From contig NC_043015.1 in NCBI RefSeq assembly GCF_006345805.1, forward strand, positions 23,560,001 to 23,624,000: DNA of 64,000 bases, read 5' to 3'. The DNA comes from Octopus sinensis (lineage: Eukaryota). A program made the position numbers. Numbering within the stretch: the first letter of the stretch is position 1; each line of letters starts with the position of its first letter. Shown here one piece after another: positions 27,001 to 64,000 of this stretch.

Positions 27001-30000
27001 TTTAAACATATGAATGCAATATGCATTTATTGTCTCTGTTGTATTCTCTGCAACACTCCTTGGTCTTGACGTAATACGTGTTTCTAGACAGATAAGGCAT
27101 TGAGTATTATGCCTTGCTTTTTCTGAACATCATTGCCGTCGGTGCAATTATGTTCATCATCAAGGTTACAGCTTGTTTCTTTATGTAATCATCTATCTGT
27201 GAAAAGCATGGAGCTAATAAAATTTGTGTATAAAGAATTCAAGAAGAGATTCCATTTATCTTTTGCTGCATTTGTCTCTTTGCAATTCACAACCTTCTTA
27301 CGAGGGAAGCAAGTATAGCTGTGTGGTAAGGAAGTTCGTTTTCCATCCTGTTGACTAAATGGATCTGGGTTCGACTGGACAGGAGTTGAAGCAAATATCT
27401 TCTAACATGAATCAGAATTAATCGATATCAAAATCAATACTTACTGATTGTAGCTCTATAGAGTATATATATATATATATCTACGTATGTATTACGTACG
27501 TACGTATGTATGTGCATGTGTGTACAAATGTATATATCAATATATATTTATCTATATATATTGAGCACAAATCAAAGGGTGACTCCAGGCCCCAGAGTTT
27601 CGTGCGTTAGCATTTATCAAACTCATATTTTGAGTTCCATGTTTCCGTCTGCATCAACATACATGCATATATGGTGGCTGCCCCCTCGTTATCGAGTATG
27701 GCCATTGCACGAAGCTTAATCAATGTTGCTTTCGTGCAATGCCTGTGCAAGAAGATTTTTTTTTAAGCGAGGAAAGGCTGTGCACTGAGTCAATCCCACT
27801 CACTAAGCAACAGCAGCCATAATCCGAAAAGAAGAACAAGTCAACATCATCGGTAAGTACTGAGCCGTAGGTTTTATGTCGGAGTTATCCCAGTTACCTG
27901 AGTTACCTTCTCCTAGAAGGATGCCATAACAAAGGCTAGGAGTCCTTCACTCCCAATGGTTTAATCACGCGATCGGGTATTCAGTCCGATTATTTCTCTG
28001 TCTCCGCGCATAATAAAGCCTTAAGACATTTATTAGATGGCCGTTGACTCTCAATAGTTCCTCCGCCCTTTGACGGGTTTTGTTTTTCATCCTGTAGGGT
28101 GTCCAATAAAGACTCCCCTCACCAAGTAAGCTTGGTGGGGTTGCCTGTTTAGTCACCGACGACCCGACCATGCAACAGGTTGTACTGGGTTACATGTTAC
28201 CAGTAGCACTCGAAAGTGACCTGACATACATACATACATACATACATACATACATACATATATACAAGCATACATACATATATCCATACACACACACACA
28301 CACACACACACACACACACATATATATATATATATATTTATATATATATATATATATATTATATATATATATATATAATATATATATATATATATATATA
28401 TATATATATATATATATATATATACAACAATATTAAGGAATGGCCTTGATAGGCCATTCGACCCACTAGAAAGAGCAGCTAAACTCAAACCGCTAAATAG
28501 TTGTAATTCAGAAACCAAAGGAAAATAAAAACACTTACCCTTATCATCTTTGGACTATGCATAGTTTCGACATACATATTGGCAAACCGATTTAATTAAA
28601 TTAAATTAAATCTATTTGCCACTGGCCTGTCTCGTCAGCAAAGAAACCAGGGAAATATATATCAACGAGGCGACAGCATCGACGCCTTGAGAATATATAT
28701 TCTAAATTTTCAAAATCTACCGTCACCACGCCACTTATCAGCAGCAAATATAAACTGCTGATTTAATTTCAGAATTAGCCAAAAAAATCATTAATTAATC
28801 AATATCAGGGTAGCAAAAAATTCAAGAGAAATTTTTCGCCACCAGCGGTCCAGTGAGAAAGGAAAAAATAGTCAACAGACTATATAATATACATTCAACA
28901 ATATTAATGGCCTATCAAGGCCATTCCTTAATATTGTTGAATGTATATTATATAGTATGTTGACTATTTTTTCTTTCTCACTGGACCGCTGGTGGCGAAA
29001 AATTTCTCTTGAATTTTTTGCTACCCTGATATTGATATATATATATATATAAATTTAACAATTAAGGATAACTTCTTAATAAGGAATCTTAACAAGAAAT
29101 TATCTGCTTTGCTTTGAAGAACTGCATTAGTTATGATTAGTGTAATTTTGGTAGTAATGACTTATGTCCCTCTTAGTGTGAGGCATTTATGTGTAATAAT
29201 GCCCTCTATACAATATAACTATAATTAATATGTTCAATGGGAAAAGAATTATTTTCGAATTCTTTTCTCTTATGAGGTTTTTCACGCTAACTACCTGATA
29301 ATTTCTTGTTAAGATTCCTTATTAAGAAGTTATCCTTAATTGTTAAATTCTTTCCGAAATACTTTTCCTATCCGACATGCAGTTCGAAAAAGCCCGCCAT
29401 TTACCGAATATATGATTTATAAACATTTCCATGTGCTTCGCCGGAGTGAATAGATATCTGTTCGTCTTCGCCAGGTAAAGTTGGTCGTTTATCTATGATG
29501 TGTTCAGAATCAGTTCTGCTGATGATCATAGACATAATTTTATACGTTAAATGTAAAATCACGGGTGATACAGAACTAAATTCATTTTTTAAATGTCTTG
29601 CTTTGAAGAACTGCATTAGGTATGATTAGAGTAATTTTGGTAGTAATGACTTATGTCCCTCTTAGTGTGAGGCATTTATGTGTAATACTGCCCTCTATAC
29701 AATATATATATATATATATAATATATATATATATATATATATAATATATATATATATATATATATATATATATATATATACACTTTTATTCTTTTACTTT
29801 TTTCAGGCATTTGACAGCGGGTATGCTGGAGCACTGTCCTTACTCTAACAAATCAACCACATAACTTATTCTCTGTAAGCCTAGTGCTTATTTTATCGTT
29901 TGCTTTTGCCGAGCCGCTAAGTACCGGGGAGGTAGACACACCCACATCGATTTTCAATTGATGGTAGGGGAAAACATACACACAAATACATACATACATG

Positions 30001-63000: not shown

Positions 63001-64000
63001 CAGAGAAATACAGCTTACCCACTTACTCATGTGAAACTATTGCCACCTTCCTACTATACCCAGTATTGTTTTTTTTACCTATTCTTATTAAGTAAATTTA
63101 TTTACTAAATTCAGTTGTTGCATTAGTACTGAGCTGCAAACCTATGTTCCTGTCAGATTGTCACTGCTGGTATTTGTATCTCTATATCATCATTGAGTTT
63201 ATTTGCCTTCCTTGAATATTCAACCATTCCCAGCCTCTTGATTCAAGAGAGAATTGTCCTTGTTCTCCACGAGATGCCTTGCAACAAAGCTTAACACTTT
63301 TCTATTCTTACATTATTTACGTTATTTACATTTGACGGATATTTGTCCTCGTCTTGTTTGTTGTCAACACAACGTTTCGGCTGATAAACCCTCTCGCCTT
63401 CATCAAGTGTTGTGGGGAAATATTGAACCTGGGTTCTCATTCCTAAGGTATCATTCGATATTATTATTATTATTATTATTATTATTATTATTATTATTAT
63501 TATTATTATTATTATTATTATTATTATTCTATGTTTGACTTTTGCTTTATGTCTGTACAAGCTGGCTCCAAGTCTCACCCAGAGAGCTCAAGAGACAACA
63601 GGTTGGAAGTTCACGTTGTTGTTATGCTTAAAGTGCCATATATTTGGGTTTCTTTTTTGGTGTTGTACTAGTGAATGTCTAATACATAAATTTTAAAAAA
63701 AGTTTGTTTTAAACTTTGGGATTACATAGAGAGAATTTTGCGTAGGATATGAGCAGTTCCCATGAGCACTATCTTTTGAATTTCTGCCATTTTGGGGTTT
63801 CCTGGTATCTGAGTTAGGTAGCAATCAGCCCCTTTCGCTATCATTCTCAGGGCACCTATGGTATTGTTTTAGTCTTCAGGTTCCACATTTTGCTGATTTC
63901 TGTTTCAAGATCTTTATATTTGCTCAGTTTTTGGTAGGTCTTGACAGATACGTTCATATCGATTGGGACAGTCATATCAATGAGGAGGCATGTTCTTTGT

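What the first reader, a model, noticed from the sequence alone, without database searches (positions are those of the whole stretch)
28425..63411. Several unrelated hammerhead-bearing small retroelements share PLE-style integration signatures
Seen: five families with no shared sequence outside the core each carry a type I HHR motif with a palindromic stem/loop III (28548-, 29512+, 33218-/34559+, 44188+/63366-, 53306+). Each family shows a partial tandem duplication and/or an inverted end segment, and most sit in (TA)n. A PLE GIY-YIG remnant lies at 61354. Known: PLEs and metazoan non-LTR retrozymes encode minimal type I HHRs that can cleave as dimers, and PLEs insert as partial tandems or inversions. 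Inference: this genome hosts a diverse non-autonomous, PLE-mobilised retrozyme system at high density. I do not know whether it has been described for this lineage.
Basis: partly seen in the sequence, partly recalled or inferred. Interest (0 to 1): 0.9.

Follow-up and report, generated by a model that had tools for sequence, protein, structure and literature searches.

The report
Hammerhead ribozymes in Penelope-type insertions
Several short non-coding mobile-element copies in this animal genome carry small self-cleaving hammerhead RNA motifs together with the insertion scars typical of Penelope-like retroelements, which is a known association rather than a new kind of system.

Summary
The observation largely holds. 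Four of the five claimed families (A 28.4 kb, C 33-34.7 kb, D 44.2/63.4 kb, E 53.3 kb) carry a type I hammerhead (HHR) with a palindromic helix III. The fifth (B, 29.5 kb) is only HHR-like. Only 2 of the 7 sites have an intact catalytic core. A strict descriptor found 4 sites in the window and none in 60 shuffles. Rfam's gathering score is never reached; the best match is E, at 28.3 of 34 bits.

The families share no other sequence. Each shows a partial tandem or an inverted copy, and A, B and C abut (TA)n, while D abuts (AAT)n in both copies. The claimed GIY-YIG remnant is real, and its motifs match the published description of Hydra-clade Penelope-like elements (PLEs), which target (TA)n and carry HHRs.

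The best reading is short non-coding RNAs inserted by PLE machinery. "Retrozyme" in the strict sense is not met, because no unit is flanked by two same-strand HHRs. Copy numbers, family status and cleavage could not be tested, since no eukaryotic DNA collection was available.

HHRs in PLEs, truncated or single copies, tails, (TA)n targeting and PLE-derived retrozymes are all in print (2014-2026). This is a new member of a known kind, of low to moderate interest.

The parts
28425..29036 (-). Element A. One ~490-nt non-coding unit (28426-~28917, minus orientation) plus a head-to-head inverted partial copy (28920-29036). (TA)n lies on both sides (28320-28424 and 29035-29051).
   Evidence: Sequence. 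Inverted arms 28798-29036, 244 nt, 93.4%. A 50-nt terminal segment (28409-28458) is repeated inverted at 28906-28954, 94%. No Pfam domain in 3 read-through frames.
28547..28644 (-). HHR of A. Type I with an intact core, 6-bp helix I, a long 63-nt helix II, a 12-nt palindromic helix III, and cleavage after C at 28553.
   Evidence: Descriptors. Cofold puts the dimer at -69.7 against 2 x -28.6 kcal/mol, with a 12-bp intermolecular helix III. No Rfam match.
29052..29706 (+). Element B. A 53-nt inverted copy (29052-29104) of 29297-29349, a 489-nt unit, and a 109-nt partial tandem (29109-29217 = 29598-29706), followed by (TA)n at 29702-29780.
   Evidence: 109 nt at 97.2%; 53 nt at 100%. Sequence. 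No relevant Pfam domain.
29512..29577 (+). HHR-like remnant of B. Helix I 7 bp, CUGAUGA at 29519-29525, helix III 4 bp plus a CGGG loop, H17 = A at 29570. Position 12 is not G and helix II is weak.
   Evidence: Read by hand. The MFE fold keeps helix I. No descriptor hit and no Rfam HHR match.
33153..34706 (.). Element C. A head-to-head inverted pair with arms 33153-33887 (minus) and 33964-34706 (plus) and a 76-nt spacer. The left end abuts an imperfect (TA)n.
   Evidence: Arms 745 nt at 97.6%. Sequence. No Pfam domain in 3 read-through frames of 33888-34706.
33214..33303 (-). HHR of the left arm of C. Intact core, 51-nt insertion in helix II, 8-nt palindromic helix III, H17 = A.
   Evidence: Rfam Hammerhead_1 11.4 bits, E=7. 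Cofold dimer -41.1 against 2 x -14.4.
34555..34644 (+). HHR of the right arm of C. Same motif with U4->C.
44133..44278 (+). Element D, copy 1 (~150 nt). It sits directly 3' of an (AAT)n run. The HHR at 44188-44233 has intact CUGAUGA but a damaged GAAA/15.1 stretch.
   Evidence: Sequence. 83-87% identical to copy 2.
43992..44019 (-). Inverted copy of the last ~28 nt of D copy 1. It is separated from D by a tRNA-like segment and (AAT)n, and may be a PLE-type 'tail'.
   Evidence: 28 nt at 92.9%, inverted. Sequence.
63322..63455 (-). Element D, copy 2. It sits directly 3' (on the minus strand) of the (AAT)n at 63456-63528. The minimal HHR at 63365-63412 has C3->U.
   Evidence: helix I 6 bp, extra A after A9, 4-nt palindromic helix III. 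Sequence. No Rfam match.
53136..53530 (+). Element E. A 346-nt unit with a short partial tandem (53136-53203 repeated at 53482-53530, with an internal deletion).
   Evidence: 27/27 and 19/20 identical. Sequence.
53306..53350 (+). HHR of E. Canonical metazoan type I layout: helix I 6 bp, helix II 4 bp with loop CAAAUA, helix III 2 bp plus a palindromic tetraloop. C3->U.
   Evidence: Rfam RF00163 28.3 bits, E=2.5e-5.. Cofold dimer -26.6 against 2 x -11.4.
61348..61724 (+). Degraded, 5'-truncated endonuclease remnant of a Hydra-clade PLE. It has a CxCX5C linker, then a GIY-YIG-type domain, with one frameshift and one internal stop. No RT lies upstream.
   Evidence: HMMER: 70 relatives at E<=1e-3, best 1.5e-10. 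Linker piece against P0012, E=1e-8. tblastn of 70 relatives hits only 61458-61721. Motif counts in relatives compared with Craig 2021 section 11.

Best explanation
These are dead or dying copies of short (about 150-820 nt) non-coding RNAs inserted by the reverse transcriptase / GIY-YIG endonuclease machinery of Penelope-like elements.

Proposed mechanism:
1. The endonuclease nicks a microsatellite target: (TA)n for A, B and C, and (AAT)n for D.
2. Target-primed reverse transcription starts near the RNA's 3' end.
3. Template jumps and second-strand events leave partial tandems, head-to-head inverted 5'-truncated copies and short inverted terminal 'tails'.
4. Each RNA carries one type I hammerhead 50-180 nt from its 3' end. 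Its short palindromic helix III is predicted to form only when two ribozymes pair. Cleavage would therefore be confined to multimeric or read-through transcripts and would trim them to unit length.

Shown here: the motifs, the anatomy, the target bias, the absence of coding sequence, and a Hydra-clade PLE remnant in the same window.

Inferred: mobilisation in trans, dimer-dependent cleavage, and that these are dedicated non-autonomous families rather than broken tails of autonomous PLEs. I lean to the former.
For: - HHR architecture is present in 4 families and beyond chance.
- Dimer folds place the palindromes in an intermolecular helix III and are more stable than two monomers.
- Partial tandems and inverted copies occur in all five units.
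- 4 of 8 ends of A, B, C and E abut (TA)>=5, against a 4.6% background. D follows (AAT)n in 2 of 2 copies.
- These are the published PLE signatures: pLTRs, inverted 5'-truncated copies, a 30-40 bp tail, (TA)n targets and an HHR near the 3' end (Craig 2021). The tail is described as unique to PLEs (Frangieh 2024).
- No Pfam domain in 9 read-through frames of A, B and C. There is no Hydra-type endonuclease homology anywhere except 61458-61721. C has about 670 nt upstream of its HHR without coding signal.
- The two D copies start at the same base after (AAT)n.
- A Hydra-clade PLE endonuclease remnant lies in the window.
- Retrozymes have been argued to be non-autonomous PLE derivatives (Li et al. 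2026 preprint, abstract and section 14).
Against: - Each 'family' is seen once (A, B, E), once as an inverted pair (C) or twice (D). No genome-wide copies could be examined, so mobility as families is unproven.
- 5 of 7 cores carry a lesion, and B fails every descriptor.
- No motif reaches Rfam's gathering score.
- No target-site duplications could be defined.
- The only PLE protein trace is old, lacks RT and is not adjacent to any unit.
- Endonucleases of other PLE clades were tested only through Pfam, which recognises them poorly. E was not put through Pfam.
- The tail-like pieces are 28-53 nt. In B the inverted piece is internal to the unit as I drew it, and in D it is separated from the unit by about 115 nt.
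Confidence: 0.55

Rival explanations
1. The units are simply severely 5'-truncated 3' ends (pLTR or 3'-UTR pieces) of autonomous PLEs, not separate non-autonomous families.
For: Cervera & de la Pena 2014 state that most minimal HHRs occur as single, widely dispersed motifs, probably from truncated PLEs. They also report pairs 100-700 bp apart on opposite strands, as in C (passages). The HHR position near the 3' end fits a pLTR. Only one or two copies of each unit are seen here.
Against: C has about 670 nt and A about 280 nt upstream of the HHR with no coding signal and no Hydra-type endonuclease homology. Both D copies begin at the same position, which is unlikely for random truncation. The units share no sequence with one another or with the region after the endonuclease remnant.
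Confidence: 0.3
2. They are true metazoan non-LTR retrozymes. Tandem HHR-bearing repeats are transcribed, self-cleave at two sites, are ligated into small circular RNAs and are re-inserted.
For: E has the canonical type I layout and a 346-nt unit, within the 150-450 bp range given for retrozymes. The units have low GC and are non-coding. The preprint reports monomeric copies alongside tandems.
Against: No locus here has two HHRs on one strand. The tandem parts (109 nt in B, about 47-68 nt in E) exclude the ribozyme, and C's two HHRs are on opposite strands. A, B and C exceed the size range given. No RNA data were available.
Confidence: 0.1
3. The motifs are chance matches in unrelated repeats, and the tandem and inverted structures are ordinary rearrangements or assembly artefacts in microsatellite-rich DNA.
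For: A loose descriptor gives 0.48 hits per shuffle. CUGANGA alone is common. Nothing reaches Rfam's gathering score. Perfect or near-perfect palindromes can be assembly artefacts, and Craig 2021 notes that such structures cause assembly problems.
Against: 0 of 60 shuffles gave any hit with the strict descriptor, against 4 observed. E matches the whole Rfam model at E=2.5e-5. In every unit the motif has the same position and orientation relative to the unit's 3' end and to the repeat structures.
Confidence: 0.05

Closest known systems
Minimal and short-helix-III type I hammerheads of Penelope-like elements (Cervera & de la Pena 2014, PMC4209133; passages read)
   Same: - Type I topology with G10.1-C11.1 and palindromic 15.2-16.2/loop 3.
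- An extra nucleotide after A9, and no helix III beyond a 4-nt palindrome, in D.
- Mostly single dispersed motifs, with pairs on opposite strands a few hundred bp apart.
- High sequence diversity within one genome.
- Expected to work as dimers.
   Different: - A and C carry 63- and 51-nt helix II insertions, whereas that paper describes helix II of about 6 bp in the passages I read.
- A, C and E lack the extra nucleotide after A9.
- E and D2 have U3 with G8, not the U3-A8 covariant reported there.
- No flanking RT ORF is present here.
Hydra-clade PLEs (Craig et al. 2021, PMC8557442; section 11 read in full)
   Same: - The remnant at 61348-61724 has the CxCX5C linker and a CxH after the conserved N.
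- Of its 120 long relatives, 89 show RWK, 89 show DKT, 109 show the linker, 117 show CxxC..E and 116 show a C-terminal CxH.
- These relatives are about 700 aa and lie on 2.2-3.5 kb contigs.
- The clade is described as inserting into (TA)n and always carrying canonical HHRs.
   Different: - The window copy is a broken endonuclease only, with no RT.
- Its second Cys of the CxxC is lost, and no HHR is detectable downstream.
- No link to units A-E is shown.
- Clade assignment rests on the paper's text. Its supplementary alignments and HHR list could not be seen.
Metazoan non-LTR retrozymes (Cervera & de la Pena 2020, PMC7229834, passages; Li, Clavereau & Pollet 2026 preprint, abstract and section 14)
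   Same: - Short, AT-rich, non-coding units with a type I HHR.
- Proposed dependence on, and origin from, PLE pLTRs.
- E has the unit size and the canonical ribozyme layout.
   Different: - The defining tandem arrays with one HHR per repeat are absent here.
- No circular RNA evidence.
- A, B and C are longer than the 150-450 bp given.
Rfam RF00163 Hammerhead_1
   Same: E aligns to all 45 model positions, including loop 2 and the loop-less palindromic helix III. C aligns end to end with a 51-nt insertion.
   Different: All scores are below the gathering score of 34. A, B and D give no match at E<=10.

Membership tests
Hammerhead ribozyme, type I | Conserved core C3 U4 G5 A6 N7 G8 A9 / G12 A13 A14 / H17 | tested here: inconclusive
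   Fully met at 2 of 7 sites (A and C-left). There is one lesion each at C-right (U4C), E (C3U) and D2 (C3U). D1 lacks a proper GAAA/15.1. B lacks G12.
Hammerhead ribozyme, type I | Three helices around the core with helix I open, and an A15.1-U16.1 pair | tested here: met
   Met for A, C, D2 and E. B has helices I and III, but helix II is only 3 bp above a U.U.
Hammerhead ribozyme, type I | Score at or above Rfam's gathering threshold for RF00163 | tested here: not met
   0 gathering matches. E 28.3 and C 11.4 against 34 bits. No match for A, B or D2. D1 and C-right were not scanned separately.
Hammerhead ribozyme, type I | Self-cleavage 3' of H17 | not testable with these tools
   Needs in vitro transcription of monomer and dimer constructs.
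Penelope-like element insertion | ORF with RT and GIY-YIG endonuclease | tested here: not met
   No ORF or Pfam domain in A, B or C, and E shows no ORF by eye. The only endonuclease homology is at 61458-61721, with no RT. The units are therefore at most non-autonomous or truncated.
Penelope-like element insertion | Partial tandem (pLTR) and/or an adjacent inverted 5'-truncated copy | tested here: met
   B and E have partial tandems. A and C have inverted copies.
Penelope-like element insertion | Optional 30-40 bp terminal 'tail' | tested here: inconclusive
   A has a 34-50-nt terminal segment repeated inverted. D1 has 28 nt inverted, but about 115 nt away. B has a 53-nt inverted piece that is not terminal as drawn. 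Junction statistics from many copies are needed.
Penelope-like element insertion | HHR in the terminal repeat near the 3' end | tested here: met
   The cleavage site lies about 50 nt (D2), 70 nt (C), 127 nt (A), 136 nt (B) and 180 nt (E) from the inferred 3' end.
Penelope-like element insertion | Microsatellite, often (TA)n, target | tested here: met
   A, B and C abut (TA)n, against a 4.6% background. D abuts (AAT)n in 2 of 2 copies. E does not.
Metazoan non-LTR retrozyme | Tandem repeats of about 150-450 bp, each with a type I HHR | tested here: not met
   No unit has two same-strand HHRs. The repeats cover 1.1-1.2 units and exclude the ribozyme.
Metazoan non-LTR retrozyme | Expression as small circular RNA | not testable with these tools
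   No transcriptome data.
Hydra-clade PLE (endonuclease remnant only) | CxCX5C linker upstream of GIY-YIG | tested here: met
   C-H-C-x5-C starts at about 61354. It aligns to the linker of P0012 (E=1e-8) and P0004 (E=9e-8).
Hydra-clade PLE (endonuclease remnant only) | No CCHH inside the GIY-YIG core; CxxC and CxH flanking the conserved E and N | tested here: inconclusive
   In the window the CxH is present and the CxxC has lost its second Cys. The GIY-YIG interval is broken by a frameshift. In 120 long relatives, CxxC..E occurs in 117 and the C-terminal CxH in 116. Of the 70 where linker and YIG were both found, 14 have a Cys between them.
Hydra-clade PLE (endonuclease remnant only) | RT with DKT (not DKG) and an RWK motif; element <3 kb | tested here: inconclusive
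   Absent from the window, which has no RT. In relatives: DKT 89, DKG 8 and RWK 89 of 120. Their longest contigs are mostly 2.2-3.5 kb.
GIY-YIG nuclease superfamily (endonuclease remnant) | Match to the Pfam GIY-YIG model | tested here: inconclusive
   The window piece has no match. 8 of 71 aligned members match PF01541 weakly, best E=0.0029 and below its cut-off. No solved structure was found by profile.

The most novel reading that the evidence does not exclude
This genome, probably an octopod cephalopod (by my recall of its SINEs only), hosts several sequence-unrelated families of short non-coding hammerhead elements that are copied in trans by PLEs. The families differ in their microsatellite target: (TA)n for A-C and (AAT)n for D. 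That would imply the target is chosen by something carried on, or paired with, the RNA rather than by one endonuclease alone. Some ribozymes carry 50-63-nt helix II expansions that escape Rfam and the standard descriptors. This would be the first description of such elements in cephalopods. My searches of the held library found no paper on hammerheads or retrozymes in cephalopods.
Probability: 0.25. Interest if true: 0.4.

Novelty: new member of a known kind. Interest (0 to 1): 0.25.

Why it matters
If confirmed genome-wide, these units would add a mollusc (probably cephalopod) example to the recent argument that animal retrozymes and dispersed hammerheads are non-autonomous offshoots of Penelope-like elements. 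They would also give a natural set of unrelated RNAs that one class of RT/endonuclease can mobilise, which helps define what the enzyme recognises. The long helix II variants show that Rfam-based annotation undercounts such ribozymes. None of this changes the current picture: the association, the insertion scars and the microsatellite targeting are already published.

Tried and rejected
- Rfam scans. The whole window at E<=10 gave 295 matches. The 150 shown were microsatellite look-alikes of miRNA families, and no HHR was among them, so I scanned small stretches instead.
- Family D. I first rejected D as an HHR because I required a helix III of 6 nt or more and no extra base after A9. A generalised descriptor reversed that.
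- Covariance model. A model built from A, C and E was abandoned because MAFFT misaligned the 3' halves around the long helix II inserts, and I may not type edited sequences.
- Endonuclease remnant. Pfam on six read-through frames of 60001-63002 found nothing. The word-based protein search found nothing. The Atlas found nothing for a 55-aa piece. The PDB profile search gave only irrelevant weak hits. Only the exhaustive HMMER search found relatives.
- Precomputed domains. Pfam domains listed for the relatives (PF26215, PF28514) were not reproduced by the local Pfam copy on 3 of them, so I make no claim about them.
- ARAGORN found no tRNA in the window, so the tRNA-like segment at 44019-44090 is called that by eye only.
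- Downstream of the remnant. I looked for an HHR after the endonuclease remnant (61725-62400) and found none on the plus strand.
- Lineage. I could not confirm it with any tool. The cephalopod guess is recall.
- Unchecked. Copy numbers, consensus sequences, covariation and comparison with pLTRs of intact PLEs therefore all stayed unchecked. Craig 2021 files S1 and S2 and figure S7 (Hydra families, their HHRs, mollusc hosts) and the supplements of Cervera & de la Pena 2014 and 2020 may already list such elements for this lineage.
- Complex prediction, structure prediction and fold search were not used, because no claim here needs them.

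
Full report
WHAT THE WINDOW IS. The window has 64,000 bases, no N and about 35% G+C. It is crowded with (TA)n, (AAT)n, (CA)n and (CT)n runs and interspersed repeats. A roughly 400-nt repeat occurs four times (22373-22770, 29767-30162 inverted, 38582-38987, 54332-54757), and a second repeat occurs at 24654-24750, 51526-51863 and 52818-52971. 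Both look to me, from memory only, like the abundant tRNA-derived SINEs of octopus genomes. No tool confirmed the lineage. Nothing suggests human sequence.

THE RIBOZYME CLAIM. Rfam at gathering thresholds finds nothing. At E<=10 the listed part of the output is swamped by microsatellite look-alikes of miRNA families. I therefore wrote descriptors and also scanned small stretches with Rfam.

Sites that fit:
- Site A (28644-28547, minus) has every conserved core base, G10.1-C11.1, a 6-bp helix I, a 12-nt palindromic helix III and C17. Its helix II is a 63-nt imperfect hairpin, which explains the lack of an Rfam match.
- Site C-left (33303-33214, minus) has a full core, an 8-nt palindrome and A17, with a 51-nt insert in helix II. 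Rfam aligns it end to end at only 11.4 bits.
- Site C-right, its inverted twin, has U4->C.
- Site E (53306-53350, plus) matches all 45 positions of Hammerhead_1 at 28.3 bits (gathering 34), E=2.5e-5 for the 191 nt searched, with C3->U.
- Site D. I first dismissed D. A descriptor that allows the extra base after A9 and a bare 4-nt palindrome as helix III then picked up copy 2 (63412-63365, minus) with a 6-bp helix I and U17, again with C3->U. Both features are described for PLE minimal hammerheads by Cervera & de la Pena 2014 (passages). Copy 1 (44188-44233) keeps CUGAUGA but has a damaged GAAA/15.1 stretch.

The site that does not fit:
- Site B (29512-29577) has a 7-bp helix I, CUGAUGA, a 4-bp non-palindromic helix III and A17. 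However, position 12 is not G and helix II is three pairs above a U.U. It passes no descriptor and has no Rfam match. I treat it as a possible decayed ribozyme, not a verified one.

In total, four of five families are confirmed, and 2 of 7 sites have intact cores.

IS IT MORE THAN CHANCE?
- Loose descriptor: not informative, with 2 hits against a shuffle mean of 0.48, and 6 of 100 shuffles gave two or more.
- Strict descriptor (helix II at least 4 bp, perfectly palindromic helix III of 6-14 nt starting A and ending U, helix I at least 5 of 6 paired): 2 sites with no core mismatch and 4 with at most one. None of 60 dinucleotide shuffles gave any site at either setting.
- Generalised descriptor: 1 and 3 sites, against shuffle means of 0.05 and 0.25 over 40 shuffles.
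- All hits lie between 28 and 64 kb.
- Cofolding two copies puts the palindromes into an intermolecular helix III of 8-12 bp and is more stable than two monomers: E -26.6 against -22.8, C -41.1 against -28.8, A -69.7 against -57.2 kcal/mol. This fits the dimer model in the literature but is a prediction only.

ANATOMY OF THE UNITS. The families share no sequence at E<=1, apart from D1-D2 and one 17-nt chance hit.
- A. One roughly 490-nt unit in minus orientation, plus a head-to-head inverted partial copy (arms 28798-29036, 93.4%). A 50-nt terminal segment is repeated inverted at the centre. (TA)n lies on both sides.
- B. Starts 16 nt after A, in the same (TA)n. It has a 53-nt perfect inverted copy of an internal segment, a 489-nt unit and a 109-nt partial tandem (97.2%), followed by a 79-nt (TA)n.
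- C. Two arms of 735-745 nt (97.6%) head to head around a 76-nt spacer. The left end abuts an imperfect (TA)n.
- E. A 346-nt unit with a short partial tandem, and no (TA)n tract of 5 repeats or more at its ends.
- D. About 150 nt. Both copies begin at the same base directly after an (AAT)n run. One run is the tail of what I read by eye as a LINE 3' end, and the other follows a tRNA-like segment. In copy 1, a 28-nt inverted copy of D's 3' end lies about 115 nt upstream.
- In every unit the ribozyme faces the unit's 3' end, 50-180 nt from it.
- Of the 8 ends of A, B, C and E, 4 abut a (TA)>=5 tract and one abuts an imperfect tract. Only 4.6% of window positions lie within 5 nt of such a tract. 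The ends are not independent, because A and B share a tract.
- Read-through translations of A, B and C give no Pfam domain in 8 of 9 frames, and one irrelevant match at E=0.32 in the ninth. E shows no ORF by eye.

THE PLE REMNANT. At 61348-61724 (plus) a broken reading frame shows a C-x-C-x5-C motif. After a frameshift there is a GIY-YIG-like stretch with one internal stop, ending in C-R-H. Pfam, the word-indexed protein search and the Atlas found nothing. The exhaustive HMMER search found 70 relatives at E<=1e-3, the best at 1.5e-10. The match usually falls at their C-terminus. The linker piece in the other frame aligns to two of them at E=1e-8 and 9e-8. Pfam's GIY-YIG model weakly matches 8 of the 71 aligned sequences (best E=0.0029) and is the family matched by most members.

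One relative (P0067, 696 aa) carries reverse-transcriptase motifs. Its own relatives number 1017 at E<=1e-5 among the 8000 candidates scored. They are about 580-740 aa long and mostly sit on contigs of 2.2-3.5 kb. Among the 120 listed, RWK occurs in 89, DKT in 89 (DKG in 8), the CxCX5-6CP linker in 109, CxxC..E in 117 and a C-terminal CxH in 116. Section 11 of Craig et al. 2021, read in full, defines the Hydra clade by exactly these features:
- short elements (<3 kb) with a single ORF;
- an RWK motif, and DKG changed to DKT;
- no CCHH, a CxCX5C linker, and CxxC and CxH around the conserved E and N;
- canonical HHRs, and insertion into (TA)n in almost all families;
- hosts that include Mollusca.

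I therefore assign the remnant to that clade on the paper's text. Its supplementary alignments could not be seen. tblastn with all 70 relatives hits only 61458-61721 (75 HSPs, all in that place). The copy therefore has no RT, and no other Hydra-type endonuclease is in the window. No HHR is detectable downstream of it.

HOW IT MOST LIKELY WORKS. The combination seen here is the published signature of PLE integration. It consists of partial tandems, inverted 5'-truncated copies, short terminal tails, microsatellite targets and a 3'-proximal hammerhead (Craig 2021; Frangieh et al. 2024). Frangieh et al. trace the tail to internal initiation of reverse transcription and call it unique to PLEs.

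I therefore read A-E as RNAs inserted by PLE RT/endonuclease through target-primed reverse transcription at nicked microsatellites. The hammerhead, whose helix III is too short to form alone, would cut only where two ribozymes meet in multimeric or read-through transcripts. Its role is unsettled even for intact PLEs: Frangieh et al. found that cleavage was not needed for insertion in vitro.

I lean towards dedicated non-autonomous elements rather than truncated tails of autonomous PLEs for three reasons. There is no coding trace in up to 670 nt upstream of the ribozyme, the two D copies share a 5' end, and no sequence is shared among the units. One window cannot settle it, however. Cervera & de la Pena 2014 explicitly attribute most single dispersed minimal HHRs to truncated PLEs, and they report opposite-strand pairs like C.

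COMPARISON AND NOVELTY. The strict retrozyme definition requires tandem repeats of 150-450 bp, each with an HHR, giving circular RNA (Cervera & de la Pena 2020). It is not met at any locus here. E comes closest in unit size and ribozyme form. The idea that animal retrozymes are non-autonomous PLE derivatives is the title claim of a 2026 preprint, which works on vertebrates plus a few invertebrates.

A 2026 repeat annotation of Octopus vulgaris lists 31 recently active Penelope-like families. In the passages I read it does not discuss hammerheads. My searches of the held library for hammerhead or retrozyme together with octopus or cephalopod returned no paper describing them in that lineage. 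This is a statement about that library only, and the lineage itself is my recall.

What may be new is modest:
- members in a probably undescribed host;
- very long helix II inserts that defeat Rfam;
- a hint of family-specific microsatellite targets, (TA)n versus (AAT)n, based on 2 of 2 D copies.

VERDICT. This is a new member of a known kind, with interest 0.25.

Noticed in passing
window 22373-22770 (+), 29767-30162 (-), 38582-38987 (+), 54332-54757 (+): Four copies (77-89% alike) of a roughly 400-nt interspersed repeat with a tRNA-like end and an internal (TA/CA)-rich patch. From memory it resembles the abundant octopus tRNA-derived SINE, which is my only clue to the host lineage.
   Followed up: partly
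window 24654-24750 (-), 51526-51643, 51710-51863, 52818-52971 (+): A second SINE-like repeat family with four partial copies at 80-93% identity. Two of them are 184 nt apart head to tail.
   Followed up: no
window 43650-43990 + 44283-44577, and 63456-64000: Two copies of what looks by eye like the 3' end of a LINE on the minus strand. The reading frame ends in a conserved C-terminal motif, followed by a 3' UTR and an (AAT)n tail. Copy 1 is interrupted by the tRNA-like segment, (AAT)n and element D.
   Followed up: partly
window 44019-44132: A 72-nt tRNA-like segment followed by (AAT)n, directly upstream of D copy 1. ARAGORN calls no tRNA. I could not resolve whether it is a separate SINE or the head of a composite element with D.
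   Followed up: partly
window 40759-41577 (-): Two adjacent open frames (132 and 139 aa) that read like a mariner-type transposase pseudogene. It was named by eye and not sent to any search.
   Followed up: no
window 14230-15691: Tandem duplication with an 806-nt period, 657 nt aligned at 98.3%. Each copy is bounded by (TA)n, and part of it recurs at 55132-55279. No hammerhead motif was found in it.
   Followed up: no
window 30229-30521: Two head-to-tail copies of a 148-nt unit (85.5%) next to the SINE at 29767-30162. There is no CUGANGA box.
   Followed up: no
window 9550-9646, 24470-24620, 41862-41945 and many others: Sub-threshold Rfam miRNA 'matches' (mir-466, mir-297, MIR834, mir-3149) are all microsatellite hairpins, (TG/TA)n and (CTA)n/(TAG)n. 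They are artefacts of low-complexity sequence.
   Followed up: yes
window 53312 and 63406: Two unrelated hammerheads (E and D copy 2) carry the same core change, C3->U with G8 kept. This would turn the C3-G8 pair into a U.G wobble. It is not the U3-A8 covariant reported for Cercyon PLEs. It could be coincidence or a tolerated variant.
   Followed up: no
window 10403-11701 (-): A long open frame (432 aa) made almost entirely of low-complexity runs (Leu, Ile, Ser and acidic stretches) over trinucleotide repeats. It is probably not a gene.
   Followed up: no
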